From the NCBI GenBank assembly GCA_963695505.1, contig CAVOGX010000012.1, forward strand, positions 120,768 to 184,767: 64,000 bases of DNA, read 5' to 3'. This DNA comes from an uncultured Chloroflexia bacterium. Its GTDB lineage: Bacteria > Chloroflexota > Anaerolineae > Promineifilales > Promineifilaceae. A program made the translations under genes and the position numbers. Below, piece by piece: positions 29,884-60,118 of the stretch (the stretch's first letter is position 1; every line of letters begins with the position of its first letter). Under the pieces are notes generated by a model. It worked only from the letters and a program-made list of their open reading frames with translations. It was not told the DNA's origin and did not search any database.

Positions 29884-29911
29884 ATTCCTCATTCCTCATT
29901 CCTCATTCCTC
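29884..29911. repeat. (ATTCCTC)x4 heptamer tract followed by T6, at a frame break
   Basis: Four perfect 7-mers. The upstream and downstream parts of the gene are in different frames on either side of this tract. Confidence 0.85.
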
Positions 29912-30310
29912 TTTTTTCTATGGCTGGTTCTGGCTCCCATCTACCTGCTGACCCTGGGGCGCACCGTTGGTCGGGCCGATACCTTTGAGTTTCAGGTGGT
30001 GGCGCCGCAGTTGGGCATTGCCCATCCTACCGGCTACCCGCTTTATTTGCTGCTGGGCAAGCTGTGGACGGAGCTCATTCCCTTTGGCACGGTGGCGTGG
30101 CGGCTAAATGTGGGAACGGCCGTTTACGCCCTCCTTGCTGCCACGTTCATTTACCTTACCGGGGCGCGGCTGCTGCGCCGACCCGTTCCCGCTCTCCTCG
30201 CCGCCCTCGCTTTGGGCATCACCCCCACCTTTTGGAGCCAGGCCGTTGAAGCAGAAGTGTACACCCTGCATGCCCTCATCATCAGCGTGGCGCTGTGGGT
30301 AATGGTGAAA

Positions 30311-30350
30311 ATTGGAGACTGGAGACTGGAGATTAGAGATTGGAAATTGA
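30311..30350. repeat. Heptamer tract (GGAGACT/GGAGATT/AGAGATT) in-frame in a CDS
   Basis: Translated as IGDWRLEIRDWKL. Confidence 0.8.
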
Positions 30351-30460
30351 TAGGGTTAGCGTTTTTGTTGGGGTTAGGCTTGACCAATCACTTGACAACG
30401 CTTTTCTTATTCCCGCCCGCCGCCATTATTCTTCTAACTGCCCTTTACCACAGCCGCAAA

Positions 30461-30490
30461 CAGTCTCTAATCTCCAATCTCCAATCCCTC
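30461..30490. repeat. Heptamer tract of complementary flavour (CAGTCTC/TAATCTC/CAATCTC) in-frame in a CDS
   Basis: Translated as QSLISNLQSL. It is the reverse-complement word family of 30311-30350. Confidence 0.8.
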
Positions 30491-30903
30491 CTCAAACTCT
30501 TATTTGCCTTTCTCGCCCCCCTCAGCCTCTACGCCTACCTGCCCCTGCGCTGGCAGGCGGTCAATGGCGAGCCCATGGGCTGGGCGCGCTTTGTAGATTG
30601 GGTGATAGGCGGCCGTTTTCAGGGCGCGCTGCAGTGGCGTGCCTGGCTGGACGACCCCACCCGCTACGAAATTGTGGGGCGGCTGTTCCTGGATAATTGG
30701 GGTTGGGTAAATCTAGGCCTGGCAGGCATCGGCTTCATTTACCTGATGGTGCAGCAGCGCCGCGCCGCCCTGCTGCTCTTTGTCACCTGGTTGGGCTTCA
30801 CTTTCTACGCCCTCAACTACTACGTCCCCGACCTCAACGTCTTTCTGATGGGCGCGCACGTCGTCGTGGCGCTGTGGTGGGCAGCAGGCGCAACGGCGAT
30901 TTT

Positions 30904-30972
30904 TGATGTCGGATGTCGGATGTCGGATTTTGAATTATGCCTTACCGCCCAATCTCTAGTCTCCAGTCTCCT
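30904..30972. repeat. (GATGTCG)x3 tract plus (CAATCTC/TAGTCTC/CAGTCTC) tract in-frame in a CDS
   Basis: Translated as DVGCRMSDFELCLTAQSLVSSL. Confidence 0.75.
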
Positions 30973-31860
30973 ATTCCTGCCCATTTTGCTCCTGGCCATT
31001 GCCACCTGGCCCCAGGTAGACCGTTCGCGGGCGGATGGGTTGACGCAGTGGGGCACGGCCGTTCTCAACCTACCCCTTGCTCCAAACAGCGCCATCCTGG
31101 CCGACAGCGAGAAAATTGCGCCGCTGTACTACTTACAGCAGGCCGAGGGCCTGCGCCCCGACCTGGACATCATGGTGCTGCCCGATGAGGCCGCCTACCG
31201 TGCGGAGCTGGAAGCGCGAGTTGCCGCCGGGCAGACTGTGTACCTGGCCCGCTATTTGCCGGGGCTGGAAGGCGTTTACCATTTGCGCGCTGTGGGGCCG
31301 CTAACCGAGGTCAGCACAAAGCCACTAGATAGCTTGCCCGCGTCAGCCATTCCCGCCAACCTCCGCTTTGGCCCACTGCGGTTGATTGGCTATGAAGGTA
31401 GCGGTTGAGAGTGCGTATGCGTCGCGCACGGCGGCCATTACATTCTACTGGCAGGCCGCCGCACCACCGGCAGCAGTTCTGGTACGTGTACGTACGCTGG
31501 CAGGGGCAGCCGCCGCTGAATGCCAGCGGGCAGCATCCGGCCAACGACGACTACCCCACCCTGGCCTGGCGCGCCGAAGAGATTGTGCCCGACTTTTACC
31601 TGCTGCCCCACCCCATCAGCGCCGCGCCGCAAAGGCTGGCGGTGCAGGTTGCCGTTGCGCCGCCCTTCACCCCAGAGGCAGAACTGACCTGGCAAACGGT
31701 GACCACGCTGGCGTTGCCCGCAACGGGAACTTTGGATTTGGCACGGCCGTATCGCATCCAGCTTGGCCCGGCCACCCTCAGCGGGGCGCAGTTCCCTACC
31801 CAAATTCGGCCGCAAACGGCTCTGCCCGTGCTGCTTACGGGTTCCGGTGAGCGGTTATCA

Positions 31861-31929
31861 GTCATCGGTAATCAATTATCGGTGGCCAGTGACCAGCAAC
31901 CAGCAACCAATCTCCAATCTCTAATCTCT
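31861..31929. repeat. Composite heptamer tract (ATCGGTA.., ACCAGCA.., CCAATCT..) in-frame in a CDS
   Basis: Translated as VIGNQLSVASDQQPATNLQSLIS. Confidence 0.75.
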
Positions 31930-32489
31930 TACGAAGTTGTGTTTGATGGTCTGGGGAACGGCCGTTTCCCCCTCATCGTGCAGGGAACGCCGGGGCAGGT
32001 GGTGTGCGGCTGGCTGCAAACCGGGCGTCGATGCCTGCACACTGGGCACGGTCGAAGTCAGCGGCGTGCCGTTGCCGGAGAGCGCGACCAACTTCGACGA
32101 CAAAATCGCCCTGCTGGACATTGCCATTCCCGAACACGCGGCTGCAAGCGGGCGGGCTACTGCCTCTTACGCTAACGTGGCAAGGGCTGGCCCCGCTGGC
32201 GGAAGATTACACCGTCTTTGTGCAGGTGCTAGACGCCAACGACCGCATTGTGGGGCAGGTGGACGCCTGGCCGGTGCAGGGCACGCACCCCACCAGCCAA
32301 TGGACGCCCGGCGAAACCATCAGCGACCCGTACACCGTGCCGCTTGACCCCGACCTGCCGCCGGGCGAATACCGCCTGATTGTCGGCTGGTACCTGCTGG
32401 CCGACCTGCGCCGCCTGCCCGTTTTGGATGCGGCCGGCTCGCCGGTGGATGATAGAGTGGTAGTAGAAGGATTGGTACGGCCGTAGCCG

Positions 32490-33287
32490 TCACCCCACCA
32501 CCCACGCCCCATACCCTACAACCCGATCCTTTGGCCCAGCGGTATCCCCAGAATTGCGCAAATCCAGCAGGTGTGTGTGCAGCCCGTGCTGCCGCGCCGC
32601 GTGCAGCAGCCCACCAATGGGGATGCGCCCGCAGGCAGAATTTTCACCCAATGCTGCCGGATTTAGCTGCTGGATGGCAACGGCCGTTTCCTCATCCATC
32701 TTCTTTGCCGCCCGGTAATCCAGGTAATGACTCAAATCCGAACTGATCACGACGAGTGTTTCTGCACCGCCCCACAGCCGCTCTAGCACCTCAGCCACCT
32801 CTGTGGGCTTTGCATCCCCCACCACCAGCGGCACCAGCTTAAAATCCAACCCCAGCGTCATTTGCAAAAAGGGTAGATGCACCTCCAGGCCGTGTTCACG
32901 GCCGTGCGCGGCGTCCAATACACGCACCTGCGGCAGCGGCAAAATCTGGATGATAGCATCCTGGTTGACTGCCACTTCCCCTAGCGGCGTGGCAAAGGCA
33001 TCGGCGCTGCAGGCAGCCAGGCCATGCAGGTACATGGTGTGCGCCGGACCGAGCAGCAGCACCCGTGTGACCTGCCCGCGCAGCGGAGCCACTTGCACGT
33101 AGGCGGACCCGGCAATGGGACCGGAATAGATGTAACCGGCATGGGGGGCAATGATGGCCTTGGGGGTGACAAGGGGCGTTGGGGGGGAAACGGCCGTTTC
33201 GATAAATCCTTGCACCATCTCTTGCAAACGGTGCGTGTTCGCGGGGTAAAAGGTACCGGCCACAGCCGGTTGGCGTGTGTAATACAT
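32490..33287 (-). CDS. AmmeMemoRadiSam system protein B (MEMO1 family)
   Basis: RQPAVAGTFYP...IIAPHAGYIYSGPIAG... is typical of the Memo family. Confidence 0.85.
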   Translation of the reverse strand: MYYTRQPAVAGTFYPANTHRLQEMVQGFIETAVSPPTPLVTPKAIIAPHAGYIYSGPIAGSAYVQVAPLRGQVTRVLLLGPAHTMYLHGLAACSADAFATPLGEVAVNQDAIIQILPLPQVRVLDAAHGREHGLEVHLPFLQMTLGLDFKLVPLVVGDAKPTEVAEVLERLWGGAETLVVISSDLSHYLDYRAAKKMDEETAVAIQQLNPAALGENSACGRIPIGGLLHAARQHGLHTHLLDLRNSGDTAGPKDRVVGYGAWVVG

Positions 33288-33416
33288 GACTCCCTCAATT
33301 TGTCATTTATAAACGGATCTGACAAGCCTCAATCTTAAGAAGCGATCAAAATTGGCGTCGATCAGACCCTGTTGTTCAGTCACCTCTTAAGAATAGCATA
33401 TTACAATAACCTTCGG

Positions 33417-34924
33417 GCAGCTGGCTGGGGAGCAGTAAAAACTCGTTAGATGGCAAAAGGTAATGAGGCCTGATCATACACGACCTCTTTCCACTGCCCG
33501 CTGAGCCATACAGCTCGGGCTTTTGCCACCCAGCGAGGCCTCCTTCTTCCAACCATTGTGCGCCAGAACGCTTCAGACGCATGGCGCCGATTTGTTTACA
33601 GCCACTTTCCACGGTGCCGCTGCCGATGAAATAACCTTGCTTCCGAAAATGAGCATAATCCATGCGCGCCAGATTGTTTTGAAAATAAGTGGCGGCGGTG
33701 GCGGCTGGCTCTGCCGCCGGGGCATGGTCGGCCAAGGCCGCACACTGATCAATCACCGTTTGGGTGCGACTGTGCCATAAGTGTTCCTTCATCGTAGTCA
33801 GCCACGCTGCTTGCGTGGCTTCCTCTGGAAATAAGGCTTGGGCGATAGGTGTCAGATACTCGACCGCATGATACCAGTCCAGAATTTGAATTGCCTGAGG
33901 AAAGTTGTCCTCAATCAAGCGCCAGATCCATTTGGCGCCATCACAGACAAAGATCAGCTCCTGGGCGCGGTCGGCCAGATAATGACATCCGGTGGCCCAC
34001 AACAAGGTCGAAAACGACTCGGCTTCCTGGATGTCACAATGATAGCGGATATCGGTGGCTTTCAAGGCCTCTAATTCTCCCACCCGCGCTTTGTAGCGGG
34101 AGGGCCACTGCCGGGCGGAGAGGGGGCTGACCTCATACCAACAAATCGTTTTCAACTCTCGCCACTCTGTCTGGGTCGGCACCATCACGCCGTCTATCGA
34201 CCCATACAACCGCCTGGGTGCCGGCTCTTCTTGCCGGGCCGGGTCATTCATATAATGATGCCAATCACTCAGCTTTTTCCATTTTGTCTCGAGTGCTTCC
34301 TGTTTTTGTCCCACCCACTGGGCCGCTTTACGAATGCTGTTATCACTGATTTCCAACAACAATAACTCTTTGGCCAACCGGGCCGCTTCGTCAAAGGACG
34401 TTTGGACCCCCAATAAGGCCAATAACGGCTTTAAGCCCTGGCTTACTTCTCCGGGCTTGATCTGCATCTGGGTGTCCAATGGCTTGGTACCGGTCTGGCA
34501 ATGGTCACATAGATAATAGCTGCGCTTGTATTGCACCCGCCCAAAGACCGTGATCACCATCCCCTGCCGCCGGCAGCGATAGCGGGCTTTGTGCTGACAG
34601 GTACAGCGGATGCTGGGGGCGACCTGGGTCACTCTTTCCCAAGACTTGTCCCAATGCTTGTCTCCCCACTTCCTGCAACATCTGCCTCATACTCTGTTCA
34701 ATCTCGCCGAGGGTCACACTTTCTTCTTCTTGCACATAGGTCACAACCAGGTCGCTTAACATGTTCGCAATTTGCGCCACACCTTCTTTCACCAGCTTTG
34801 TGTTAAAATCCATTTTCAGCCTCCTTGTGATTTCGTTTTGGTTTTGGTACCTATAACAAAATCACAAGAGGCTCTTTTTGTCCAACTTTTTTCTTTACGG
34901 GTTTTTACTACACCCGCTGGCTGC
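33417..34924. mobile_element. Insertion sequence, ISKra4/ISLre2-like (UPF0236-type DDE transposase)
   Basis: Terminal inverted repeats GCAGCTGGCTGGGGAGCAGTAAAAAC (33417-33442) and GTTTTTACTACACCCGCTGGCTGC (34901-34924). No clear target duplication is seen. There is no ACGGCCGT motif inside. Confidence 0.75.
33446..34813 (-). pseudogene. IS transposase, 2 frameshifts as assembled
   Basis: MDFNTKLVKEG... N-terminus (34505-34813), FVCDGAKWIW, YFQNNLARMDYAHFRKQGYFIGSGTVESGCKQIGAMRLKRSGAQW. The native C-terminus ...ARAVWLSGQWKEVV...AI* is recovered in another frame and ends at 33446. Confidence 0.8.
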
Positions 34925-35255
34925 AATATTTGTGCATGCAATTAGAGTTATTGTATAATTTTTTTGCGTTTACCCTCTTCTAGGCAATGTTAATTGCTGT
35001 TCTACACTATCTGCAGGAAGAGGCAGAGATATCAAACCAAAGATGCGCAACATTCCACAAGCTATCCACTCAAATCGATGCAGTCATTGTCTGATAAGGA
35101 AATCGTTATAAAGGGGGTGGTAATCAAAGAATAAATTGACCCATTGTTCTGTTTCCCATCATAAACGGCCGTAGTTGTGGCAAAGTTTAAAACTTTACCG
35201 CACATTACAAAACGGCCAGTTCACCACTTTAACCATTTTCTTGAGGAGGAAAAAC

Positions 35256-38200: not shown

Positions 38201-38388
38201 TGGGCGAGCAGTATCTAGGCGTCTTTGAAAATGGTGGCGTGGGTTCAACAACCCTGGCCTACCGGGAATCGGACGTTCTGGAAGTGCTGGACTTCGGGCC
38301 GATAACCAACAACACGGAAACCGGTTTGCTGCTGCTTTACCGCGGCGGGGCGCCAGCAGACAATGAAGCAGGTATCGTCCTGCCATAA
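35256..38388 (+). pseudogene. Secreted subtilisin-like serine peptidase (S8) with PA-type insert and large C-terminal domains, 1 frameshift near 35560
   Basis: GTG 35256 follows GGAGGA. Signal peptide KKPRFKLILLVLALIVVLVGVSVASA. Catalytic triad contexts are ILDSGID, HGTHVADI and GTSGAAPMVTG. Confidence 0.85.
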
Positions 38389-38441
38389 AGAGTTGGTTTA
38401 GCCACTCCTTGGTAATGCATTCAAGGGTGGTTAGTTAGACA

Positions 38442-38479
38442 AGAGCGGCGTTGGGGGCTTCCCGACGCCGCTCTTTGTT
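38442..38479 (+). terminator. Rho-independent terminator after the S8 peptidase gene
   Basis: AGAGCGGCGT-tgggggcttccc-GACGCCGCTCT followed by TTGTT. Confidence 0.7.
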
Positions 38480-46423: not shown

Positions 46424-49400
46424 TTAACGGGTGAGGGCGAGCAGAGGAACGCGGTTTTCAGGATAGGGAGAAAGGGAATGGTTAACGGCCGTTCCGCTCA
46501 CAGCCGTCAACTGCGGAAACCGATCCCCCAAATTCTCATACCAGCCCACCAAAACCTGGTACTCACCCGGCGCCAGGGATGAAAGGTCCAGCGTCACGGC
46601 ATCCGGCACAATTTCTGCGGGCAGCCATTGGCTGGTGGGGTAGCTATTATCCTGGGGCATGGCATCATTTTGGACCACAAGCTGCCCCCGTGCGTCCAGT
46701 ACGTGCACAAAGCGCGTGTAATTGGTGGTCAAAGCCGCCAATGCTTCCCAGTAAAGCGTCAGGGTAACGGCCGTTTCTGTTTGCGCCAGGTTATAACCAT
46801 GCAATTGTATGACTGGGGTTTCATTGGCCAGGAAAACGGCCGTTTCCGCCACCATTTCCGCGGGTAGGGCAAACTGGCGCGCATACGCCGCAAAGGTCCA
46901 CACGGAGCCCACCCGTTGCACCGTTCCCAGCCGGCGATACAACACCGTCGCTCCGCCAATCTCATACAATTGCACCATCAGCACTGCCCGTTCCGGCAAA
47001 CTCTCGGGCAGCCGGAGAGATAGCCAATCATGCACCCACTGTCCCGGAGGCCACAAGCCGCTGGGTAAAAAACCATACCCCGGCTGCGCGTCAAAATGGG
47101 TCACAAGGTTTCCCGCCTCATCCAAAACGCGCAGCGACACATTGTAATTTCGGGCTAAAGGCTGCGCTGTTGCCCAGCGCAAGCGTGCCGACCACAATCC
47201 ATCTTGAGCCACGAACTGGGTCAATTCTACAGCCAACTCCCCTGCGTCAGCCATTTCTGGGGCAGCCACCACGCGCACAGGCCGCAAAAAGAGATCTCCG
47301 CGAGGCTGGCCAGAAGGCGTCAGCGCCGCAGATTCTTGTAATTCTCCCACGCGCAAACGCGGTACGTACAAGCCGGGCGGCGCATTTTCGGGGATGGCCA
47401 GATGGTACTCCAAAAATGGTTCCTGAGGAGCGGGTGCTGCTTGGGTCATGGGAAAAGCATCTGCTTCCTCCCAGCGCAGCGCTGCCGGGGTCAGCAGGGC
47501 CACTTCCGTATTGAACCCTGCCAATCCGCTGGCGGCTAGTTGCACAGTCAGCGTCTCGCCCGGCGCCAGGGTCTCCCGATCGTAGCGGTATTCTTGCAGC
47601 TTTCCGCCATTTGCAAAGGGAACACCCTGAGGTGCGTGATGCAAATAGCCCATTTGGGCAAAATCCCAGGTCAAATCGGTGTCCGGCAGTTCGTGGCGCG
47701 GCCAGAATTGGGCAGCCAGCGCCACCAGGATCAGGCCAACCAGGGCCAGCACCCACCGCCGCCACAACGGCCGTTTCCGCGGCCAAACCAACCACACAGT
47801 CACCAGCAAAGCCACCAGCGATCCCCATTCCGCCGCCAGGCGCATGGGGGTACGCGCCAGGCGCAAAGTGACGGCATGAGTCCCTTGCGGCAGTTCCAGA
47901 GCAATGAGGCCGCTGCCCGGCGACGGCCGTATTTCCACCGGCGCGCCGTCCACATCCGCCGCCCAGCCCGGCCAGGCCATCGTGGCAAATTGCACCATAC
48001 TGGGCGAAACAGCCGTTACCCGCCACTCCTGCTCCGCTGTGGCAAACTGCACCAGTTCCGAATCCCCTAATTCTCCGGATAAGGCGCGCACCTGGTGCCG
48101 CTGCCCCGTGTTCAACCAACTGCCGGTGTAGGGGCGCGGCGTGACCGTGGATGGCAAATACTCCGCGCTGACCGTGGTGCCAATATTGCCGGTAAACCAT
48201 TCGTACTGCGCCAGCTTTTCGGCCGTCACGTCGGCATCGGTTAATACCAGATGGTCGGTGCGCAGGGCGCCCAGCCCGCTGGCCGCCAGCAGCACAACCG
48301 CCATTGGGGCAATCGCCCGCTGCCACGGCAGCAGCGCCAGTCCACCCGCCGCCAGCGCCCCGGCAAAAGCCTGCACCGACAAAAAGCGCCACGGAAACTG
48401 GGTAAAGGGCAGCAAAGGCAAATGGTCCCACAACGGCCGGGACAATGGCGTGATCATGAATGTGGCGACGAGCAAAGCGAGGGTGGTAAAAAGCAGGGGG
48501 GCAGAGGGGCGGGGGAGCCAGGAAGCCCGGGAGCTTTCTAACTCTTGCCTTTGTCCCTTTCTACCTTTGTTTCTTTGTAATAAAAATGCCAGCAAACCCA
48601 GAACGGCCGTTGCTGCCTGCACCAGCCCCATACGAAACGCCTTACCGCCAGCCACGTCATACTCAAAGAAAAGGCTGCCCTGTACCAAATCCGCGCCGCG
48701 AAAATGATTGCTGTAATGGAAATACCCTTCCGTCACCGGGCCAAGCTGCGCCAGCGACTGCTCACCCAAGGCCGGCACAAAAAACCACGCCGCCAACGCC
48801 AGCCCCAACAGCAAAGATACCGCCAAAGGGAAAAGATTGGAGATTGGAGATTGGAGATTGGCCACTGACCATTGGCCATTGGCTTTTAACCATTTGAGCA
48901 GGATGTACAGCAGCAAAAAGGGCGAAAAAATCAGCGCCGAGATATTGTGGCTCAACACCAACGCCGCATACGCCAATGCCAGCCCCGCTATCGCCCGCCG
49001 CTTGCTGTTGCCCGTACCCTGCACGTTTATAACCGCATCGGCAGCTAGGATTACCCACGGATACCATGCCATAGCCCAAAACTCGGCTAGCGAATCCCCA
49101 CGCACGTAGACGTTGACCATGTGGAAGGGGGCAAAGGTGTAGGCAACGGCCGTTACCGCTCCCACCCATGCGCTCCCCCACCAGCGCCGCGCCAGCCGGT
49201 ACATCCCCCACGCGGCTGCCAGATAACCGGCTACTTGCGCGGCCTCAATCGCCCCCACGTAGCTGAAACCCAGAAAGCGGAAAACTGCCGCAATGTAAAT
49301 GGAAAGCGGCGCATAAAAATTAAAGAAAGGGTACCCATAACCATAATTGGCGTCTGGCATCCAGCGCACCGGGAAATGGCCATCCCGCAGCGCCGTCTCC

Positions 49401-49564
49401 AACTGCTGCAAACGCTGCAGCAAGAAGGGGCTGTCGCCGCCCCCCCGGGTATTCAGCAGCCCTGGCTCGGCCAATAATGGCAAAGCGGCTGCCAGCGCTA
49501 AAAGGCCGACAGCCGCCACAAACCAATCAATTCTCTTCCAGGTCAATTTGCTCACGTGAGACAT
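46424..49564 (-). CDS. Large polytopic membrane protein, GT-C-like glycosyltransferase (PTPS-related/YfhO-like N-terminus) with a long extracytoplasmic C-terminal region
   Basis: 1046-aa intact ORF. RWMPDANYGYGYPFFNFYAPL, with many TM segments in the first ~600 aa. Confidence 0.65.
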   Translation of the reverse strand: MSHVSKLTWKRIDWFVAAVGLLALAAALPLLAEPGLLNTRGGGDSPFLLQRLQQLETALRDGHFPVRWMPDANYGYGYPFFNFYAPLSIYIAAVFRFLGFSYVGAIEAAQVAGYLAAAWGMYRLARRWWGSAWVGAVTAVAYTFAPFHMVNVYVRGDSLAEFWAMAWYPWVILAADAVINVQGTGNSKRRAIAGLALAYAALVLSHNISALIFSPFLLLYILLKWLKANGQWSVANLQSPISNLFPLAVSLLLGLALAAWFFVPALGEQSLAQLGPVTEGYFHYSNHFRGADLVQGSLFFEYDVAGGKAFRMGLVQAATAVLGLLAFLLQRNKGRKGQRQELESSRASWLPRPSAPLLFTTLALLVATFMITPLSRPLWDHLPLLPFTQFPWRFLSVQAFAGALAAGGLALLPWQRAIAPMAVVLLAASGLGALRTDHLVLTDADVTAEKLAQYEWFTGNIGTTVSAEYLPSTVTPRPYTGSWLNTGQRHQVRALSGELGDSELVQFATAEQEWRVTAVSPSMVQFATMAWPGWAADVDGAPVEIRPSPGSGLIALELPQGTHAVTLRLARTPMRLAAEWGSLVALLVTVWLVWPRKRPLWRRWVLALVGLILVALAAQFWPRHELPDTDLTWDFAQMGYLHHAPQGVPFANGGKLQEYRYDRETLAPGETLTVQLAASGLAGFNTEVALLTPAALRWEEADAFPMTQAAPAPQEPFLEYHLAIPENAPPGLYVPRLRVGELQESAALTPSGQPRGDLFLRPVRVVAAPEMADAGELAVELTQFVAQDGLWSARLRWATAQPLARNYNVSLRVLDEAGNLVTHFDAQPGYGFLPSGLWPPGQWVHDWLSLRLPESLPERAVLMVQLYEIGGATVLYRRLGTVQRVGSVWTFAAYARQFALPAEMVAETAVFLANETPVIQLHGYNLAQTETAVTLTLYWEALAALTTNYTRFVHVLDARGQLVVQNDAMPQDNSYPTSQWLPAEIVPDAVTLDLSSLAPGEYQVLVGWYENLGDRFPQLTAVSGTAVNHSLSPYPENRVPLLALTR
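48834..48883. repeat. (GATTGGA)x4 + (CACTGAC/CATTGGC) heptamer tract in-frame in a CDS
   Basis: Read on the gene strand as ...ANGQWSVANLQSPISNLF... Confidence 0.8.
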
Positions 49565-50905: not shown

Positions 50906-50944
50906 AGCTTTACCTTTCCTAAACCATGAACAATTGCTGATTGC

Positions 50945-51862
50945 TCATTTTATTTGCTTCCAAATTAGTAAGAATATCACACCCACCAGCAAGATCATAG
51001 CAACAAACCCCGCCGCCCAAAAGCCTGCGCCGGGATTCCACCCGGTAGTCGTGGGTTGAGGCGTGGGGTTTGCAGCCTGCGTGGGCGAATTTGCCGCTGG
51101 CGTAACGGCCGTTCCCCCTCCCGCCGGGCGCAAATAGCTGCCAAAGGCCAGTTGCGCCACGCTGCCCACTGATAAGCTTACTGCCCAATCCCCATCGGTA
51201 GTCAGCACTTCCTGGGGGTTGATGGAGCGGGTCACGTGATAAGCGCCGCCCCGCAGTCCCTCAATGCAGTACGGTTCAGAACTGCCGTTGGTAATGTAAT
51301 TAGCGACAACGGCCGTTTCGTCATACACCGTAAAGGCTACTCCCGGGCGCAGCGCCTCCCCGGCATCGTACACGCCGTCCCGGTTCTGGTCGTTAAAGGC
51401 CAACAGACAAACGGCCGTGCGCGGCGGCAAAATCGTGGGGCGTGGCGTAGGCGGGGGCAGCGTGGCCGTCGGCACTGGGGGGGCGGTCGGGGTTGCCGGC
51501 GGCTCTACAATTCCCACGATTAGCAAATCTCCCGGGCGAATCAACGTATTTTCCGTCAGCCCCTCATTCAGCGCCAGAAGCTCGGCAAACAACAACCCGT
51601 GCCGCCCAGCAATGGCCCACAATGAATCATTGGGCTGCACCACCGCATAAATGACGCCGTTGGCATCCGGCGTGGAGGTAGGCAGCGGCGGCTCTTGGGC
51701 CAGCGCCGGGGTGGCTAGCAAGAAAAGCAGCAAAAGTATTAAGATTAGAGATTGGAGATTAGAGATTGGTAGCGTTAATTGCCAATCTCCAATTTCCAAT
51801 CTTCGTTTATTACTTATCAATGTCCACTCTCCAGCTATCGCCTGCCCCACGGCCATTGCCAT
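50945..51862 (-). CDS. LysM + Pro-rich linker + SdrD-B-like domain protein with a C-terminal TM anchor
   Basis: LysM motif YAVVQPNDSLWAIAGRHGLLFAELLALN, and AFNDQNRDGVYDAGEALRPGV. The start is uncertain (possibly TTG 51799, 8 nt after the upstream stop). Confidence 0.65.
   Translation of the reverse strand: MAMAVGQAIAGEWTLISNKRRLEIGDWQLTLPISNLQSLILILLLLFLLATPALAQEPPLPTSTPDANGVIYAVVQPNDSLWAIAGRHGLLFAELLALNEGLTENTLIRPGDLLIVGIVEPPATPTAPPVPTATLPPPTPRPTILPPRTAVCLLAFNDQNRDGVYDAGEALRPGVAFTVYDETAVVANYITNGSSEPYCIEGLRGGAYHVTRSINPQEVLTTDGDWAVSLSVGSVAQLAFGSYLRPAGGGTAVTPAANSPTQAANPTPQPTTTGWNPGAGFWAAGFVAMILLVGVIFLLIWKQIK
51741..51803. repeat. Heptamer-tract hairpin (GATTAGA/GATTGGA ... CCAATCT/CCAATTT)
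   Basis: gattggagattagagattgg-tagcgttaatt-gccaatctccaatttccaatc lies at the junction of the GT39 stop and the LysM gene 5' end. Confidence 0.8.
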
Positions 51863-53762
51863 CCACTACCGGCAGGCGGTTTTGCCCGGCATCATACAAA
51901 CCAATGAGCACATAATGCCCGGCCGGATCAAAGCCATCGGGCAAGGTCATGGTGCGCTGCTCTTGCAGTTGCAAACCCGGCCGCCACCATGCTGACGGCC
52001 AAAAACCGCCACCGGGCGGCGCATCGTCCTGAGCCACCAGCCCATCAGGGCCAATGACGTGGACAAAGGCGGTCAGCGGTTGGGATACGGCCGTTTCGGC
52101 CGTCCACACCACATTCACCTGCAAGGTCTCATCATCATACAAGAGTGCCTGGGCAGCCTGCAAATACAGCACCCCGCCAAATGAAGCATTGCCAAAGGTG
52201 GCCTGCACCGGCAGGGGCCGCGCCTCCTGCACCTGGTAGCGCACAAACAGCGGGTAAGCCTCTGGCTCCAAATCGCCCCGCGCCTGGGGGCCGGCCGCAA
52301 CGCTCACCAATGCAGTCGGCGGAAATGCTGCCGCCACAAAATCCGTGGCAGCATAGGGCCACACAAACAGGTCGGACGGCAGCGGCAAGGGCGCGGGCAG
52401 CCCAGCGGCGGGTGTGAAGCGGCTCGCGTGGGGGGTTGTCACCAAAAAGGGCACTGCTGGCCAGCCGGACCAATACCGTTCATCCACAAAAATGGCGGCG
52501 TTGGGGTCAGCCCCATTTACATCCTCAGCCAGGGAGCGAGCCGCCGCCTCGAACAGGTAACTCGTATTGGGGTCTCTGCTGTAATTGACATAATCACGAA
52601 CGGTAACGGCCGTACTTCCCACCAGCAGCAGCCCCACCCCCAGCGCCGCCAGCCAGGGTCTGCGCAGCCAATCGGCAATCTGAGACAGCCCCAGCGCCGG
52701 TAAAATAACCACGGCGGGCAGCACGCCTGCCGCCCGCAAAAAATGGGGGGTATCGGCCGCTAAAATCGTCGGCCCCAGCATGACCGCCACCCACAGCAGC
52801 AGCACCCCCGCCGCAGGCTGCCGCCAATGGCGCAAGCACCACACCACGCCCATGAGAAAAGGCAGGGCCATGAAAAGGTCAAATACGGGCCGGCCCGCCG
52901 GATTGTGGCGTAAAATAGTATCTCCGCGCCAGATGAACATGCCCAGCGCCGCCCCCGTCTGCCGCAGCAGCGTACCCCACAAATCGCCGCCGTTTACGGC
53001 CGTATTCAACATAGAAACCTGTCCGGTGCGCCCCAGCAAAATCTCTGGCTGTTGCACCACCAAAAGCGCCAGCGGCAGCAGGGAAACGGCCGTGCCCAGG
53101 GCGAAGAGAAAGAATCAGTAAGCGGTAAGCGGTAAGTAGCAAGCGGAAAGCGGCGCTGACGCCTGGCACCCAAAAACACCACAATCCCCACCAGCAAAAG
53201 CGGCGTAAAGCGCACCGCCAGGTAGGTGTAAAAGGCTGCGCCATACACCAATCCGGCTGCCAACCACAGCCAACCGTGGCGCAACGGTAAGCCCGCGTGC
53301 CCAGCCAAAAGGTCAGCCCCAGCAGCGGAGCCAGCAAAATGGCCCGCAGCCCAATGCGGCTCAGGTGCACAGGCCACAGGGTGATGGCCCACAGCGACGC
53401 CGCCAGCAGCCCCACGCGCTGCCCAAACCACTCGCGCCCCAGCATATAGACCACCAGCGTGGTCAGGCTGCCCACCACCGCCGCCCCCAGGCGCACGGCC
53501 AACGCAGTGCGCCCAAGCAGGGCAATGGCCGCAGCGGTCAGGTAAATGTAAGCTGGTTCACGGCCGTTGTTGGCCGTGAAAAAGAGCGCATGTTCCCCAT
53601 CCAGCACGCGCAGCGCGTCCAGGCCGTTATACGCTTCGTCCCGGTACAGACCGGGCGGCCAATCACCCAACTGCCAGAAGCGCAGGAAAACGGCCGTAGC
53701 CAGCACCAATAGCAATAAAGCCCACCCAACTTTGGTGAGCTTAAGTCTCGTCCCATATCCAT
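51810..53762 (-). pseudogene. GT39/ArnT-like (PMT_2) membrane glycosyltransferase, at least 3 frameshifts as assembled
   Basis: FLRFWQLGDWPPGLYRDEAYNGLDALRVL..FFTANNGREPAYIY. Pieces are 53538-53762, 52879-53715, 53006-53431 and 51810-53063. Confidence 0.8.
53114..53153. repeat. (CGGTAAG/CAGTAAG/CGGAAAG) heptamer tract inside the GT39 gene, at a frame break
   Basis: Read as RFPLATYRLPLTDSF on the gene strand. The reading frame changes at its downstream edge. Confidence 0.75.
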
Positions 53763-53771
53763 TCCTTGAGC

Positions 53772-53830
53772 TTGTCAGCCGGTCAGCGTGTCAGGCTGAT
53801 TAGCTGAAAGGCTGATCTGGCTGAAATGCT
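53772..53830. repeat. Tandem-unit palindrome (GTCAGC.. / GCTGA..) in a divergent promoter region
   Basis: ttgtcagccggtcagcgtgtcaggc / gctgattagctgaaaggctgatctggctgaaatgc. Confidence 0.7.
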
Positions 53831-56106: not shown

Positions 56107-56158
56107 GAAATCATTATGCATTTTGTCACTTGCCGCAGTACGCGCTATAAACAAAGCT

Positions 56159-57553
56159 ATGCCTGAACTTGGTGAACCTCTCAGCGACCGCGAAATGGAC
56201 GTGCTGGCCTGCATGGTGCAAGGCGCGCAAAATAAAGAGATTGCCGCGGAGCTATTCATTAGCGAAAACACGGTGAAAGTACACCTGCGGCGTATTTACA
56301 CGAAGCTGGGCGTCTCTTCGCGTACCGAAGCCACCACCGTTGCCCTGCAAAAAGGGCTGGTAGCCGTGCCCGGCCTGGAAACAACCAGCCCCGTGGCGGA
56401 CGACCCAGACCCGGCAGCAGCAGACGTGGGTGTCGGGGAAGGGGAAGCCGAGTCTGGGGCAATATCCGACAATGTGCCTGAAACGGCCGTTTCTGACCTA
56501 TCTCCTGCTGCTCGCCCTGCGCCATGGCGCAATCTTGGTTTGGGAATCGCTCTCGTCGTCATTGTGGCGCTGCTGGGATTTGTTGTGTGGCAGCAGCAAA
56601 ACGTCATTGCGCCAGATGATGACCCGCAGACGTGCAGCGAGCGCCCCTTAGGCGATTCCCGCTGGTTGGTTAGCCAGGCTATGCCCGAGGGGCGAATGGG
56701 TATGGCCACGGCAGCCGTGGGCCTGGACATTTACCTCATTGGGGGAGGCAGCGGGCAGGATGCCGTGAACCAGGTCGACGTATACGATACGGCAAACTGC
56801 CAGTGGCGCTCGGGCGCGCCCAAGCCAACGGCCGTTTCCGACACGCGGGCAGCCGTCCTCTTCGGTGAAATCTATATTCCGGGCGGGCGGGGCGCAGATG
56901 GTTTACCCACCAGCACTGTGGAAGTGTTCAGTCCCGCCAACAACCTGTGGCGGACCATCGCCCCCCTGCCCGCACCCAACAGCGGCGGGCTGGTACTGGA
57001 ACAGGGCGGCTTGCTCTACCTCTTTGGCGGTTGGGATGGCGAGAGCTATTTGGCCACAGCTTACGCCTACAACCCGGCTCTGGACAGTTGGGAAACCCTG
57101 CCGCCTATGGGCCAGGCGCGCGCATTTGCCACCGGCGGCGCCCTCTCCGGGCTGCTTTTTGCGGTCGGTGGTTACGATGGCGCCAACGAACTGAATACCT
57201 GCGCCGCGTTCGATCCTGCTGGCAGCGCCTGGCAAGCCTGCCCCGGCATGCTTCAGCCCCGCGCCGGGGCCGGAGCAGTCGTCATCCTCAACAAGCTGTA
57301 CGTGATGGGCGGGGGCATGCAGGCCGACAGCCTCATTTCCTACGGTGAAGAATACAATCCGGCTACCCAAACCTGGCAAGTCGTGGACACGCCCATGCTC
57401 GGGAATGCTGGAAGCTGGTTCTTACCGGGCATCGCCAACATTGAAACCCGCATCTATGCTTTTGGCGGCCGCCAAAACGAGACAGTGCTGGCCGACACCT
57501 ACGTGCTGCGGGCTGTCTTCCAAACCTTTTTGCCCGCTATGCCCAATCAGTAA
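56159..57553 (+). CDS. LuxR-type HTH + TM + Kelch-repeat beta-propeller protein
   Basis: LSDREMDVLACMVQGAQNKEIAAELFISENTVKVHLRRIYTKLGV, TM GLGIALVVIVALLGFVVW, and repeated ..YLIGG/..YIPGG/..YLFGG/..FAVGG/..YVMGG Kelch blades. Confidence 0.75.
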   Translation: MPELGEPLSDREMDVLACMVQGAQNKEIAAELFISENTVKVHLRRIYTKLGVSSRTEATTVALQKGLVAVPGLETTSPVADDPDPAAADVGVGEGEAESGAISDNVPETAVSDLSPAARPAPWRNLGLGIALVVIVALLGFVVWQQQNVIAPDDDPQTCSERPLGDSRWLVSQAMPEGRMGMATAAVGLDIYLIGGGSGQDAVNQVDVYDTANCQWRSGAPKPTAVSDTRAAVLFGEIYIPGGRGADGLPTSTVEVFSPANNLWRTIAPLPAPNSGGLVLEQGGLLYLFGGWDGESYLATAYAYNPALDSWETLPPMGQARAFATGGALSGLLFAVGGYDGANELNTCAAFDPAGSAWQACPGMLQPRAGAGAVVILNKLYVMGGGMQADSLISYGEEYNPATQTWQVVDTPMLGNAGSWFLPGIANIETRIYAFGGRQNETVLADTYVLRAVFQTFLPAMPNQ

Positions 57554-60118
57554 TGGCCCAATCTGGGGGTATGTACCAGGCCAATTTTGCGCGATACGGC
57601 CGTTTCCTGCGCACACTGGCCTTGTTTCTCGGTGTTTTGATTTTTCTGGTCTGGGGTGTGTGGGGCACGTTGCCGCACACCGCACTGCGCAGCCTGTTCA
57701 GCCCCATCACGGCCGTTGACATCAACCAGCACCGCCGCGACACCCCCGCCCCCATACCCACAGGCGCTTTCACCCTGCAGCAAACCTTCACCCCCCGCTG
57801 GAATGGCTTTCGTGAGCTGGAAGTTCGCTTTTATCGTGTTGCAGAAACGCCGAATGCCGGCAAGCATTACCTTGCGCTTGCAAGACGCCGGTGGGCAAAC
57901 CATCAGCGAAGCCACGCTGCCCAACGACACAATAGCCCAGGACCAGCGTCACGTGATGCAATTTCCGCCCCAGGCAAACTCTGCCGGGCAGGTGTACACG
58001 CTGGCTGTTAGCGGAGATGCGTGCCAACGAAGTGTCGCTTTGGGGGTATGGCTTGGATGCCCATGCGGGGGGCGCGCTGGCCCTGGTTTACGGCCCGTTG
58101 GCGGCCGAAACGGCCGAAACCCCCACCAGCGCCGCCGACCTCACCTTTACCACCCGCTACCACCTAACCGGGAAAGATGCCCTGGCCTACCTGGGTCAAA
58201 CGTTAACCCGGCAGGGAAGCCTGCTGCTGCTCACCCTGCTCTTTTTGCTGCTGCCTGGCGCGCTGCTGCTGCTGGGGTGGCGCAGCCCTCTTTCACATTG
58301 GGACGCCGCAGCCTGGACCGGCACAGCTTTGGCCCTGGGAACGGCCGTCTGGCCTCTGCTTTGGCAGTTTCTGACCCTGTTAGGCGGGCGCTGGCGCGGG
58401 TGGTCTCTGTGGGCGGTACTCATCCTGGGCTGGCTGGCCGTCCTTTGGCTGCTTTGGAAAAGATGGAACGCAGAGTTTCGCAGAGAAAAAACACCAAAAG
58501 CGCTGTTTGCTCCTCCGCGCCCTTGCTCCTCTGCTCCCTTGCTCCCCCACGTCTCCGCTCCCTTGCTTCCCCGCTCCTCCGCGCCCTTGCTCCTCGTTCT
58601 GCTGCTCGCCGTAGGGCTGGCGGTGCGGCTGCTGGCGGTGCGGGACATTAACATCCCGCCCTGGGTAGACGCCAGCCGCCACGGCCTGATTACGGCCGTG
58701 ATGCGCGACAGCGGCCAGGCCATCAGCGACTACGGGAGCTATTTGCCCGTTACCCGTTTTCCCTACCATTACGGCTTCCACACCCTTTCCGCCAGCCTGG
58801 CGCTGCTGTCGGGGCGACCCTTGCCAGAGCTGCTGCTCTTTTTGGGGCAGTTACTCAATGCCCTGGTGCCGCTGACCACCTATGCGGCGCTGTGGCTGCT
58901 GACGCGGCGGCCTATGGCCGGGCTGCTGGGGGCCTTTTTCGTGGCGCTGCCCTTTTTGTTCCCGGGCTACTACGCCACCTGGGGCCGCCTGACGCAGCTC
59001 ACAGCCATGCTGCTCATGCCGCTGGCCCTGGCCCTGACCTGGCTGGTGGTGCGCGGGGGCCGAGTTGGCGGCGGGGCTGGTGGCTGCTGGCACTGCTGGC
59101 GGCGGGGCTGTTTTTGGTGCATTTTCGCGTGTTTACCTTTTATTTGCCTTTTGCGGCGCTGGTGTGGCTGGCGAGCCGGGGGCGCAACGGCCGTTTCCTG
59201 GCTTTGGCGGCTGCGGTGGGGCTGCTGCTGGTCAGCCCGCGCCTCTGGCAGTTACTGTCCGTCACCGACCCGGCGCGGGCCATCAACGCCGGCCCCAGCG
59301 ACTACAACGCCTTCCCCACCGGTTACCTGGAAGCGGGCTGGGAGCAGGCCTTTGTGGCCCTGGGCGCCATTTGCCTGGCGCTGGCCCTGGCAGGCGCACT
59401 CAAACGCCGCCGCTGGGCGGCGCTGCCCCTGCTGCTGGCGGCCTGGGTGGCGGCCCTTTTCTTGCTGCTGGCGGGCGAGCGGCTGGGGCTGCCGGAAACC
59501 TGGGTGATTAACCTGAACAGCATGTACATCACCCTCTTTTTGCCCCTGGCCATGCTGCTGGCTGTAACGGCCGTTCAGGTGTGGCAATGGCTGGCGCGGC
59601 AGCGCTGGTGGCTGCAAATGACGGCCAGCTTGCTGGCGGGCGGGCTGCTGGCGGCCCTGTTCCTCTTTGGCGTGCGCAATCAGGTCAACATCCTCAATCC
59701 GCAGACGGTTTTGGCGGAGCCGCCGGACCTGGCGGGCATAGCCTGGGTCGATGCCCACCTGCCGCCGGAGGCACTCATTGCCGTGAGCAGTTGGCAATGG
59801 CTGGGGCAAACCTGGGCCGGGCAGGACGGCGGGGCGTGGCTGACGCCTTTAACCCAGCGCCAAACCACCACGCCCCCGGCCGACTACATTTACAACCGGG
59901 ATTTGGCGGAAGAGGTGCGGGCTTTCAACGAAACGGCCGTGGCCGTGGCCGACTGGAGCGACCCGGCCCAGGCGGAATGGCTGCGGCAGCAGGGGGTCAC
60001 CCACGTCTTTGTGGGCGCGCGGGGCGGCTTTTTTGACCCGGCGGCCCTGGCCCGCAACCCGGAATTGGAATTGCTGTACGCGGAAGATGGCGTATTTGTC
60101 TTTGCCGTGCGCGACTAA
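57553..60118 (+). pseudogene. Large GT-C-like membrane glycosyltransferase, about 3 frameshifts as assembled
   Basis: TAATG overlap with the upstream gene. Colinear pieces are 57553-58011, 57656-58651 (part), 58017-59507 and 58892-60118. Many TM segments are followed by a soluble C-terminus. Confidence 0.65.
58509..58595. repeat. 8-nt periodic tract (GCTCCTCC/GCGCCCTT/GCTCCCTT...) in-frame in a CDS
   Basis: Read as APPRPCSSAPLLPHVSAPLLPRSSAPLL. Confidence 0.75.

What the first reader, a model, noticed from the sequence alone, without database searches (positions are those of the whole stretch)
29884..58595. One heptamer-repeat family is inserted in-frame inside envelope-protein genes
Tracts of tandem 7-nt (sometimes 8-nt) units lie inside coding sequence, and the ORF stays open through them. 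Tract 30311-30350 reads IGDWRLEIRDWKL, and 30461-30490 reads QSLISNLQSL. Further tracts lie at 30904-30972 and 31861-31929. Tract 48834-48883 reads ANGQWSVANLQSPISNLF, 51741-51803 reads RRLEIGDWQLTLPISNLQSLIL, and 53114-53153 reads RFPLATYRLPLTDSF. Tract 58509-58595 reads SSAPLLPHVSAPLLPRSSAPLL. The GATTGGA/TCCAATC word recurs in at least four different genes and in both orientations. It is therefore a dispersed repeat family rather than gene-specific low complexity. All the hosts are membrane glycosyltransferases or secreted proteins. None of the cytoplasmic housekeeping genes in the window carries a tract.
Basis: seen in the sequence. Interest (0 to 1): 0.65.

Follow-up and report, generated by a model that had tools for sequence, protein, structure and literature searches.

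The report
In-frame heptamer repeats in glycosyltransferase loops
Short runs of a 7-base tandem repeat, common between genes in this filamentous Chloroflexota lineage, also sit in frame in floppy inner loops of membrane sugar-transferase genes, inherited and reshuffled on the spot rather than inserted by a mobile element; this is a coding variant of a known repeat class.

Summary
The tracts are real and far from chance. Period 7 is the only enriched tandem period in the window (7 tracts, 0 expected). It also dominates 1.55 Mb from 80 related species.

The hosts are four GT-C-type membrane glycosyltransferase genes (DUF2723/TMEM260-like, PF10131, PMT_2, DUF6541-like). A fifth site is the leader of a secreted LysM protein.

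They are not one family: 101 tracts carry 57 different units, and GGAGATT is only the commonest. They do not look like insertions of a dispersed element. In relatives the same loops hold heptamer arrays in the same 7-nt register with different units. This fits resident microsatellites that turn over in place.

Arrays are densest in intergenic DNA (39 per 100 kb), where half form hairpins. They are almost absent from the interior of soluble-protein genes (0.25 per 100 kb).

One tract (EIGDWRL) is partly a conserved protein motif. The 51741-51803 tract is an intercistronic hairpin. The 58509-58595 tract is an 8/24-nt local triplication.

Two tracts lie at frame breaks. Every break that could be checked, including two in rodA, is a single-base indel absent from near-identical strains, so I read them as assembly errors. 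A phase-variation switch is not supported.

Verdict: a new variant of a known kind, of moderate interest.

The parts
29602..32486 (+). DUF2723/TMEM260-like GT-C glycosyltransferase gene, the host of five tract sites. This assembly has five single-base frame breaks in it (about 29912, 31394, 31469, 32028 and 32140).
   Evidence: Pfam PF11028, E 4.8e-29. The joined 961-aa reading is 79% identical over 99% of its length to intact orthologues of 977-985 aa. Independent metagenome contigs lack one base at 31394, 31469 and 32028.
29884..29911 (+). (ATTCCTC)x4, perfect. It lies in the loop between the second N-terminal helix and the helix that precedes the catalytic ADTFEF loop, so it is inferred to be cytoplasmic. 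The gene's frame changes directly after it, at the T6 run.
   Evidence: The closest orthologues carry other heptamer-type peptides here (ILHPSSFIL, VNSQWS). Distant orthologues have a short loop.
30310..30350 (+). GGAGACT/GGAGATT array, read as IGDWRLEIRDWKL, at the exit of a transmembrane helix. The first 21 nt encode a motif conserved in the family.
   Evidence: The motif is shared by many orthologues with 1-3 copies. It is conserved with synonymous changes in L091, L092, L106 and L107.
30461..30490 (+). Inverted arm (CAGTCTC TAATCTC CAATCTC CAATCC), read as QSLISNLQSL, at the entry of the next helix pair. It can pair with 30314-30343 across 117 nt.
   Evidence: The fold of 30300-30500 pairs the two arms (dG -57.2, z -3.2). 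Both arms are kept in at least 7 of 9 orthologues.
30904..30972 (+). (GATGTCG)x3.4 followed by CCAATCTCTAGTCTCCAGTCTCC, in the last cytoplasmic loop before the periplasmic C-terminal domain.
   Evidence: In orthologues this loop is hypervariable, with EIGDWRLE...NLQSLISxLL patterns. There is no hairpin in the window copy (z +1.4).
31852..31929 (+). Composite array (GGTTATC-like units, ACCAGCA, CCAATCT) in a variable linker of the C-terminal domain.
   Evidence: Orthologues carry QSPISNL-type and other heptad peptides of very different length here.
46424..49564 (-). Intact 1046-aa PF10131 (PTPS_related) membrane protein with a GT-C-like N-terminal domain.
   Evidence: Pfam hit. 1398 homologues. 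AlphaFold pLDDT 79, pTM 0.78. The membrane part matches ArnT 5f15 and AftD 6w98.
48816..48899 (-). 84-nt loop that is heptamer-periodic throughout: AATGGCC-type units followed by (AATCTCC)x4. The core is 48834-48883, read as ANGQWSVANLQSPISNLF. The loop limits are approximate.
   Evidence: Residues 231-240 have pLDDT 49 and no helix. Over 76 orthologues the lag-7 identity is 0.41 against 0.25 in control coding DNA.
50945..51862 (-). Secreted LysM/SdrD_B protein ORF. Its upstream-extended reading covers the hairpin tract.
   Evidence: Pfam hits. The orthologue in L003 starts after the equivalent region, and the one in L001 uses the overlapping upstream ATG.
51738..51803 (-). Hairpin with heptamer arms (AGATTGG-type, 12-nt loop, CCAATCT-type). 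It starts 7 nt downstream of the PMT_2 stop codon and ends just before the LysM signal-peptide core.
   Evidence: dG -26.4 kcal/mol, z -7.9, 0 of 200 shuffles fold as well.
51810..53748 (-). PMT_2-type GT-C glycosyltransferase gene. This assembly has two frame breaks in it (about 53282 and at the tract).
   Evidence: Pfam PF13231. tblastn with the intact 666-667-aa orthologues gives three frame segments.
53114..53153 (-). CCGCTTA-type array (GTAAGCG on the + strand) in a K/R-rich loop, inferred to be cytoplasmic. It is homologous to arrays at the same loop in L003 (CCGCTTC) and L001 (ACGGATT).
   Evidence: A contig from another sample has one more T at 53112, which restores the frame.
57553..60118 (+). 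DUF6541-like membrane protein gene, also frame-broken in this assembly.
   Evidence: tblastn with the L001 and L003 orthologues gives segments in frames 1, 3 and 2.
58507..58595 (+). Repeat of period 8/16/24 nt: about three copies of SAPLLPxx, where orthologues have a single RSSAPLLL before a transmembrane helix. It is not part of the heptamer class.
9829..9895 (-). Intergenic hairpin with CGTGAAA/TTTCACG heptamer arms. It belongs to the same repeat class and lies outside the finding's range.
   Evidence: dG -29.9, z -6.9.
10870..10951 (-). Intergenic hairpin with GTCAATG/TTGACAA-type arms.
   Evidence: dG -34, z -7.0.

Best explanation
These are heptanucleotide microsatellite arrays, the 7-nt class of long simple-sequence repeats, which are abundant in this Ardenticatenaceae/Promineifilaceae lineage of Chloroflexota.

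Origin (inferred). They arise and turn over where they lie, by slipped-strand duplication. Often they start from native sequence at the end of a transmembrane helix. Examples are the AAATGGT of the conserved K/R-W codons, and GAGATTGGAGATTGG, which encodes EIGDW.

Selection as a filter (census shown, filter inferred). The arrays are frequent between genes, where half form hairpins with array arms. Inside genes they survive only under three conditions. The unit must be stop-free in all three frames of the sense strand. The net length must keep the frame; three units equal seven codons. The encoded heptad peptide must fall in an unconstrained segment. In practice these segments are the short, disordered cytoplasmic loops of GT-C membrane glycosyltransferases, signal-peptide leaders and one variable domain linker.

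Inheritance (shown). Once present, an array is inherited vertically and keeps its position and 7-nt register. Unit variants spread or are replaced within it.

Frame breaks (shown for six). The frame breaks seen at two arrays in this window are single-base assembly-type indels, not unit-number switches.
For: Period 7 is uniquely enriched.
- Window: 7 tracts against 0 simulated.
- 80 relatives: 97 tracts at period 7, 34 at period 8 and at most 11 at any other period apart from the multiples 14 and 16 (70 and 21).
- No tract appears in 0.8 Mb of simulated sequence.

Density per 100 kb in the relatives:
- intergenic 38.8
- soluble-gene interior 0.25
- genes with 1-3 transmembrane helices 1.2
- genes with 4 or more helices outside the query family 3.6 (against soluble genes, p 0.002)
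- PF10131 family 23.5

Stop filter. 68 of 71 coding units are stop-free on the sense strand, against 67% for random heptamers. Only 16 of 70 non-coding units are stop-free on both strands, against 48% expected.

Resident arrays. The window, L001 and L003 have the same 84-nt loop in the same 7-nt register with different units, and L016 keeps the register with a longer loop. The PMT_2 loop arrays of the three species share unit cores. Over 76 orthologues the lag-7 identity is 0.41, and 26 of 76 reach 0.5 against 1 of 76 controls.

Loop nature. pLDDT is 49 with no helix at residues 231-240. The loops alternate with conserved loops taken to be periplasmic and are rich in K and R.

Frames. 78 of 80 orthologues are open across the loop; the other two lacked the anchor motifs. 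Near-identical strains lack the window's extra base at 31394, 31469, 32028, 42558 and 43033, and have one more base at 53112.

Precedent. Heptanucleotides are reported as the commonest long SSR in prokaryotes and ascribed to polymerase slippage (as summarised in PMC4679880 and PMC4692102).
Against: - The GGAGATT/AATCTCC unit recurs at unrelated loci, in both orientations and in several species. It is also abundant with many different flanks in metagenomes. Pure local slippage does not predict this.
- In the PF10131 loop the step from AATGGCC to AATCTCC has no intermediates. The closest relative L001 has unrelated sequence where L003 and the window share AATCTCC. This suggests replacement or conversion rather than point mutation plus slippage.
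- EIGDW(R)L and KSLISNLQSL are conserved well beyond what neutral loop sequence should be.
- The PF10131 census is biased, because the loci were chosen through that gene.
- My gene calls are home-made.
- No whole-genome census was possible.
Confidence: 0.62

Rival explanations
1. Contingency (phase-variation) loci. Gain or loss of one 7-nt unit shifts the frame and switches envelope glycosyltransferases on and off, as in neuO of E. coli K1 or pglE of Neisseria (both from my own knowledge).
For: The repeats are non-triplet and lie inside glycan-enzyme genes. Two arrays coincide with frame breaks in the window, although arrays cover under 1% of these genes. A near-identical strain differs by one base at the edge of the 53114-53153 array.
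Against: The difference at 53112 is 1 nt, not 7. The other five breaks that could be checked, including two in the rodA/ftsW homologue, are also single-base indels away from any array. 78 of 80 orthologues are in frame across the array loop, and the other two lacked the anchor motifs. Perfect runs are short, at most 4 units. Loop length is identical in three species.
Confidence: 0.1
2. Selected nucleic-acid structures or selected peptides. The paired arrays would form RNA or DNA stems that act on the transcript, for example in stability, termination or translational pausing after a transmembrane helix. Alternatively, the heptad peptides themselves (EIGDWRL, QSLISNL) would be functional interfacial helices.
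For: 48% of intergenic tracts have an inverted partner within 160 nt, against 0-5% for controls. The hairpins are strong (z -6.9 to -7.9). The two DUF2723 arms pair across 117 nt (z -3.2) and are both kept in at least 7 of 9 orthologues. One lineage (L087) carries the C variant (GAGACTG) in both arms. EIGDW is conserved with synonymous changes.
Against: Coding-interior arrays are mostly single-armed: 14% have a partner against 5% for controls. They do not fold. Across 31 orthologues, cognate arm pairs are hardly better than non-cognate ones, -47 against -42 kcal/mol. L102 keeps arm 2 after losing arm 1. Unit sequences at one loop differ freely between species.
Confidence: 0.15
3. A dispersed mobile or templated element. 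Arrays or array hairpins would be copied into new sites, or exchanged between sites by gene conversion.
For: The same GGAGATT unit occurs at six sites in three genes of the window and in 9 of 80 relatives' loci. Many different flanks join the same hairpin in metagenome contigs. Units are replaced abruptly inside orthologous arrays.
Against: There are 57 different units in 101 tracts. Arrays sit at orthologous positions in the same register. No termini, target duplications or associated transposase were seen.
Confidence: 0.1
4. Assembly or sequencing artefact.
For: The window's assembly clearly contains single-base indel errors.
Against: Arrays occur at the same loops in dozens of independent assemblies made by different groups and methods.
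Confidence: 0.01

Closest known systems
Over-represented heptanucleotide long simple-sequence repeats of prokaryotes (Mrazek and co-workers 2007, as summarised in PMC4679880 and PMC4692102). This includes the GGGAATC repeats of Xanthomonas and the GGGGA(T/C)T repeats of Nostoc.
   Same: Tandem 7-nt units. Period 7 is singled out among all periods. Many loci, mostly intergenic. Some occur as inverted pairs that can form stem-loops. Length and sequence vary between close relatives at the same loci. Some units here (GGGGATT, AGGGATT, GGAGATT) resemble the Nostoc type.
   Different: The phylum is Chloroflexota. There are many different units rather than one dominant G-rich unit. A sizeable share is translated in frame inside genes, at positions conserved across a bacterial family.
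STRR (short tandemly repeated repetitive) heptamers of heterocystous cyanobacteria (Calothrix/Nostoc; Mazel et al. 1990, cited from my own knowledge and in PMC4692102).
   Same: Heptamer tandem arrays of several unit types in a filamentous bacterium. They coexist with a hyper-abundant 8-nt palindrome (HIP1 there, ACGGCCGT here).
   Different: The STRR unit sequences (CCCCAGT, TTGGTCA, CAACAGT) are absent here. STRR are described as intergenic. The lineage is unrelated.
TAACTGA direct repeats of marine Beggiatoaceae (PMC4679880).
   Same: Heptamer repeats, mostly intergenic and close to gene starts. A minority lie inside ORFs, in the stop-free orientation and at the periphery of proteins. That paper invokes the same stop-codon filter.
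   Different: That case has a single unit. Its ORF occurrences are few and mostly terminal. Here there are many units, in internal loops, conserved across orthologues.
Intragenic heptanucleotide phase-variation repeats: neuO O-acetyltransferase of E. coli K1 (AAGACTC) and pglE of Neisseria
   Same: A 7-nt repeat inside the coding region of a glycan-modifying enzyme. Only multiples of three units keep the frame. The repeat encodes a heptad peptide.
   Different: Those are long perfect arrays near the 5' end with documented unit-number switching. Here the arrays are short and imperfect, lie in several internal loops, are in frame in 78 of 80 species, and show no unit-number polymorphism.

Membership tests
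Heptanucleotide long SSR class | Head-to-tail tandem copies of a 7-nt unit | tested here: met
   TRF and exact-run scans.
Heptanucleotide long SSR class | Period 7 over-represented relative to other periods and to chance | tested here: met
   Window: 7 tracts against 0. 80 relatives: 97 tracts against at most 11 for other periods, apart from period 8 (34) and the multiples 14 and 16 (70 and 21). No tract in simulated sequence.
Heptanucleotide long SSR class | Many loci across the genome, mainly non-coding | tested here: inconclusive
   Met in 1.55 Mb of relatives' loci: 38.8 per 100 kb in intergenic DNA.
Cyanobacterial STRR | Host is a heterocystous cyanobacterium and the units are STRR1-3 | tested here: not met
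   The homologues and loci are Ardenticatenaceae/Promineifilaceae, Chloroflexota. No STRR unit is among the 57 units found.
Phase-variable contingency locus | Non-triplet repeat within or just upstream of an ORF | tested here: met
Phase-variable contingency locus | Unit-number variation between strains or within a population that gives on and off frames | tested here: not met
   78 of 80 orthologues are in frame, and the other two lacked the anchor motifs. Strain differences at the breaks are single bases. Raw reads of the source sample were not available, so heterogeneity within a population is untested.
Phase-variable contingency locus | Long perfect array that makes slippage frequent | tested here: not met
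   The longest perfect run in the window is 4 units.
Mobile miniature element (MITE- or REP-like) | Defined ends or target-site duplication, and near-identical copies at non-orthologous sites | tested here: not met
   The arrays are orthologous and in register between species. The units are heterogeneous. No termini were recognised. Empty against filled sites in very close strains could not be examined.
GT-C fold glycosyltransferases (the hosts) | Polytopic N-terminal domain with a first extracytoplasmic loop bearing acidic catalytic residues, followed by a soluble C-terminal domain | tested here: met
   Pfam PF11028, PF13231/PF02366 and PF10131. Invariant D44 and D71 in loop 1 of the PF10131 family, and ADTFEF in DUF2723. 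The AlphaFold model matches ArnT and AftD. Enzyme activity was not tested.

The most novel reading that the evidence does not exclude
The heptamer arrays and the hyper-abundant palindrome ACGGCCGT would be two products of one lineage-specific DNA process in these filamentous Chloroflexota. Their densities co-vary across 80 species (rho 0.62). This mirrors the HIP1-plus-STRR pair of filamentous cyanobacteria. The process could be a repair, methylation or templated-copying activity. It would actively write and homogenise 7-nt arrays and array-armed hairpins, including the inverted GGAGATT/AATCTCC arms kept inside the DUF2723 gene. It would thereby supply new cytoplasmic loop peptides to envelope enzymes. 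At least one such peptide (EIGDWRL) has since come under protein-level selection.
Probability: 0.1. Interest if true: 0.8.

Novelty: new variant of a known kind. Interest (0 to 1): 0.4.

Why it matters
Non-triplet microsatellites inside genes are usually treated as short-lived or as pathogen on/off switches. Here frame-breaking 7-nt arrays persist at the same loops of envelope glycosyltransferases across a whole family of free-living filamentous Chloroflexota. This holds for at least a third of 76 species at one loop. They supply loop sequence, and one stretch has become a conserved motif.

That gives a concrete case of repeat-driven creation of protein sequence. It also gives a rule for where such repeats can live: a stop-free unit, three units per seven codons, and disordered cytoplasmic loops.

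There are practical consequences too. The arrays are places where gene callers and long-read assemblies break genes. The peptides they encode (IGDWRLE, QSPISNL, ITHHASR, WQVASGK) should not be read as functional motifs without checking the DNA.

Earlier notes of this scan report look-alike cases in several other phyla. If so, the phenomenon may be general and under-described. This single instance adds a well-documented Chloroflexota example rather than a new principle.

Tried and rejected
I replaced it with a census on 80 genome loci, using my own codon-usage gene caller. That caller may misplace starts, so tracts scored as N-terminal may in fact lie upstream of genes.
- Population heterogeneity of array length. 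Only Logan contigs of low-share runs were available, no raw reads, and the source sample was not found.
- Laying contigs on 48600-49100. Only the repeat itself was recovered, from other organisms.
- Frame breaks as biology. Rejected after the same kind of single-base difference was found at rodA and at non-array sites.
- Cognate against non-cognate arm pairing in 31 and then 9 orthologues. The test had little power, because all arrays of the clade share the unit family.
- Coding arrays as hairpins. Rejected for 48828-48886 and 30900-30975.
- Loop length as a multiple of 21 nt. No preference: 15 of 76 against 11 expected.
- Foldseek. The top hits are complement/MG-domain proteins that match the C-terminal beta-sandwich repeats at TM-scores near 0.08. 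Only the ArnT and AftD matches are informative.
- Literature on heptamer repeats in Chloroflexi or Promineifilum. Nothing was found in the held library.

Full report
**Observation.**
Exact self-matches of 12 or more bases occur only at period 7: five runs, against none for any other period from 1 to 16. With a scored detector there are 7 period-7 tracts. Periods 2-6 and 8-13 give none, and 20 Markov simulations give none.

GATTGGAGATTGG with up to two mismatches occurs 19 times against 1.7 expected. The matches fall at six sites in three genes. The bare 7-mer is not significantly enriched.

**Hosts and organism.**
- The ORFs at 29602-32486 are one DUF2723/TMEM260-like gene (PF11028).
- 46424-49564 is an intact 1046-aa PF10131 protein.
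- 51810-53748 is a PMT_2 gene.
- 50945-51862 is a LysM/SdrD_B secreted protein.
- 57553-60118 is a DUF6541-like membrane protein.

Homologues are named Ardenticatenaceae, Promineifilaceae, Anaerolineae or Chloroflexota. An AlphaFold model of the PF10131 protein (pLDDT 79, pTM 0.78) matches the GT-C enzymes ArnT and AftD in its membrane part.

**Frame breaks are assembly-type indels.**
tblastn with intact orthologues from two syntenic relatives shows two frame changes in PMT_2, one of them at the 53114-53153 tract. It also shows two in the rodA/ftsW homologue, whose protein is 85% identical on both sides of each break.

The DUF2723 gene has five frame changes. Its joined reading is nevertheless 79% identical over 99% of its length to intact orthologues.

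Contigs of near-identical strains from independent metagenomes lack exactly one base at 31394, 31469 and 32028. They also lack one base at 42558 and 43033 in rodA. They carry one more base at 53112. So all six breaks that could be checked are single-base differences.

I therefore treat the breaks as errors of this assembly, or at most very recent lesions, and the genes as intact. The break after (ATTCCTC)x4 at about 29912 could not be checked. It needs the removal of one base, which is the commonest error type here, or the loss of one unit.

**What the coding tracts are.**
In an alignment of 60 PF10131 orthologues the tract lies in a hypervariable loop between two highly conserved helices. Many orthologues have their own heptad-periodic peptides there, such as IHNSQFTIHNS, LQVCKFASLQVCKFA, WQVAGSRWQVAS and QSPISNFQSP.

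At DNA level the loops of the window, L001 (73% identity) and L003 (66%) are all 84 nt long. They align in one 7-nt register from the conserved K/R-W codons onward, and L016 keeps the same register with a longer loop. Their units differ: AATGGCC then AATCTCC in the window, AAGGGTC/AAGGGCC in L001, and AATAGCC/AATCGCC/AATCGTA in L016. The PMT_2 loop arrays of the three species likewise share unit cores.

Over 76 species the loop has lag-7 identity 0.41 (lag 14: 0.38) against 0.25 in control coding DNA. It also loses the usual codon periodicity. 26 of 76 orthologues reach 0.5, against 1 of 76 controls. 78 of 80 orthologues are open across the loop, and the other two lacked the anchor motifs.

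These are resident, vertically inherited arrays with turnover in place. They do not look like repeated insertions.

**The DUF2723 sites.**
- The N-terminal loop (29884-29911) and the third loop (30904-30972) are hypervariable.
- So is the C-terminal linker (31861-31929).
- Orthologues carry array-type peptides at all three, and the loops are short in distant orthologues.
- The first loop differs. EIGDW(R)L, which equals three units of GAGATTG, is shared by many orthologues in one to three copies.
- In distant orthologues that motif is kept with synonymous codon changes that destroy the 7-nt periodicity.
- So it is under protein-level constraint, or it was the seed of the array.
- The second loop (KSLISNLQSL) is its reverse complement and is also widely kept.
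- The two arms can pair across 117 nt (z -3.2).
- Cognate pairs are not clearly better than non-cognate ones, and one lineage keeps arm 2 without arm 1.

**Two sites belong elsewhere.**
- 51738-51803 is a strong hairpin (dG -26.4, z -7.9) starting 7 nt after the PMT_2 stop codon. It resembles the intergenic hairpins at 9829-9895 and 10870-10951 (z about -7). Whether it is translated depends on the LysM start codon. If it is, it lies in a signal-peptide leader that would be cleaved off.
- 58507-58595 is a triplication of period 8/24 nt. It copies the gene's own RSSAPLLL segment.

**Census in relatives.**
The census covers 80 loci, 1.55 Mb and 80 species. There are 97 tracts at period 7, 34 at period 8 and at most 11 at any other period apart from the multiples 14 and 16.

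| Class | Tracts per 100 kb |
|---|---|
| Intergenic | 38.8 |
| Gene ends | 9.3 |
| Soluble-gene interior | 0.25 |
| Genes with 1-3 transmembrane helices | 1.2 |
| Other genes with 4 or more helices | 3.6 |
| PF10131 family | 23.5 |

Simulated sequence gives none. The PF10131 figure is biased, because the loci were chosen through that gene.

The units are diverse: 57 in 101 tracts, with GGAGATT the commonest at 11. Coding units are stop-free on the sense strand in 68 of 71 cases. Non-coding units are enriched for stop-containing units. 48% of intergenic tracts have an inverted partner within 160 nt, against 14% of coding ones.

**Topology (inferred).**
In the PF10131 model the tract is the lowest-confidence inter-helix loop (residues 231-240, pLDDT 49). 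It is separated by one helix from a conserved loop taken to be periplasmic. It is separated by two helices from a K/R-rich loop. So it should be cytoplasmic. Counting helices from the catalytic ADTFEF loop and from the periplasmic C-terminal domain places DUF2723 loops 0-3 in the cytoplasm as well. The PMT_2 loop is rich in K and R.

**Mechanism.**
My best explanation is slippage-generated heptamer arrays filtered by selection (confidence about 0.6). The steps that are shown:
- enrichment of period 7;
- the distribution across sequence classes;
- the stop filter;
- orthology and shared register of the arrays;
- the disordered nature of the loop;
- intact reading frames in relatives.

The steps that are inferred:
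- slippage as the generator, in line with the proposal summarised in PMC4679880 and PMC4692102;
- cytoplasmic location of the loops;
- neutrality of the encoded peptides.

Some things are not explained. The GGAGATT unit recurs at unrelated loci and in metagenomes. Units are replaced abruptly within arrays. Both inverted arms are kept in DUF2723.

**Comparison with what is known.**
The class is the known heptanucleotide long SSR. Examples are cyanobacterial STRR, Xanthomonas and Nostoc G-rich heptamers, and Beggiatoaceae TAACTGA. Intragenic precedents are neuO and pglE.

The new elements here are the lineage and the many array sites per gene in internal cytoplasmic loops of GT-C enzymes. The conservation of position and register across a family is also new, as is one array-encoded motif under protein-level constraint.

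The held literature has nothing on such repeats in Chloroflexota. Earlier notes of this scan describe look-alike cases in other phyla. I treat those as unchecked leads, but they lower the surprise of this single case.

**Verdict.**
It is wrong about one family and about insertion. This is a new variant of a known kind, with interest 0.4.

Noticed in passing
window 1-64000; loci L005-L084: The palindrome ACGGCCGT occurs 90 times in the window, where I estimate about 1.5 by base composition. Across 80 relatives' loci its density co-varies with heptamer-tract density (Spearman 0.62, p 1e-9). Loci rich in the palindrome have about 7 times more tracts. The test is not corrected for phylogeny.
   Followed up: partly
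window 42474-43579, 29602-32486, 51810-53748, 57553-60118, probably also 8581-13446: This assembly carries frequent single-base indels that split genes, including the rodA/ftsW homologue. Independent contigs of near-identical strains lack the extra base at 31394, 31469, 32028, 42558 and 43033. ORF-based readings of this contig need that caveat.
   Followed up: yes
window 58507-58595; 12008-12036; 53769-53830; loci L005-L084: Period-8 tandem tracts are the second enriched class in this lineage: 34 in 1.55 Mb against at most 11 for other periods (leaving aside period 7 and the multiples 14 and 16).
   Followed up: partly
window 48834-48861 and 30311-30350/31907-31929, as seen in runs X2-X4, X15: (AGATTGG)n, and GGAGATT arm - short loop - AATCTCC arm hairpins, appear at high depth with many different flanks in sediment, freshwater and marine metagenome contigs. 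This unit is therefore widespread beyond this genome.
   Followed up: no
window 50945-53748; L001 5759-8615: The LysM ORF overlaps the 3' end of the PMT_2 gene by 52 nt in both the window and L001. In L003 the called LysM start lies after a 68-nt spacer, so the true start codon is uncertain.
   Followed up: partly
window 32490-39100 versus L001 20330-23090: Synteny with relatives (PMT_2, LysM, SdrD_B, PF10131, redoxin, GlnRS-like, rodA, minEDC, radical SAM, Memo) ends at the Memo gene. In the window the DUF2723 gene follows it. In relatives that gene lies elsewhere, next to DinB or response-regulator genes.
   Followed up: no
loci L087, L094, L102, L145-type orthologues: Other DUF2723 orthologues carry long loop expansions of different periodic peptides in the same loop, for example PPTNDRR x5 in L094 and TPHTSTPAHP-type repeats in L087. 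These suggest longer-period arrays as well.
   Followed up: no
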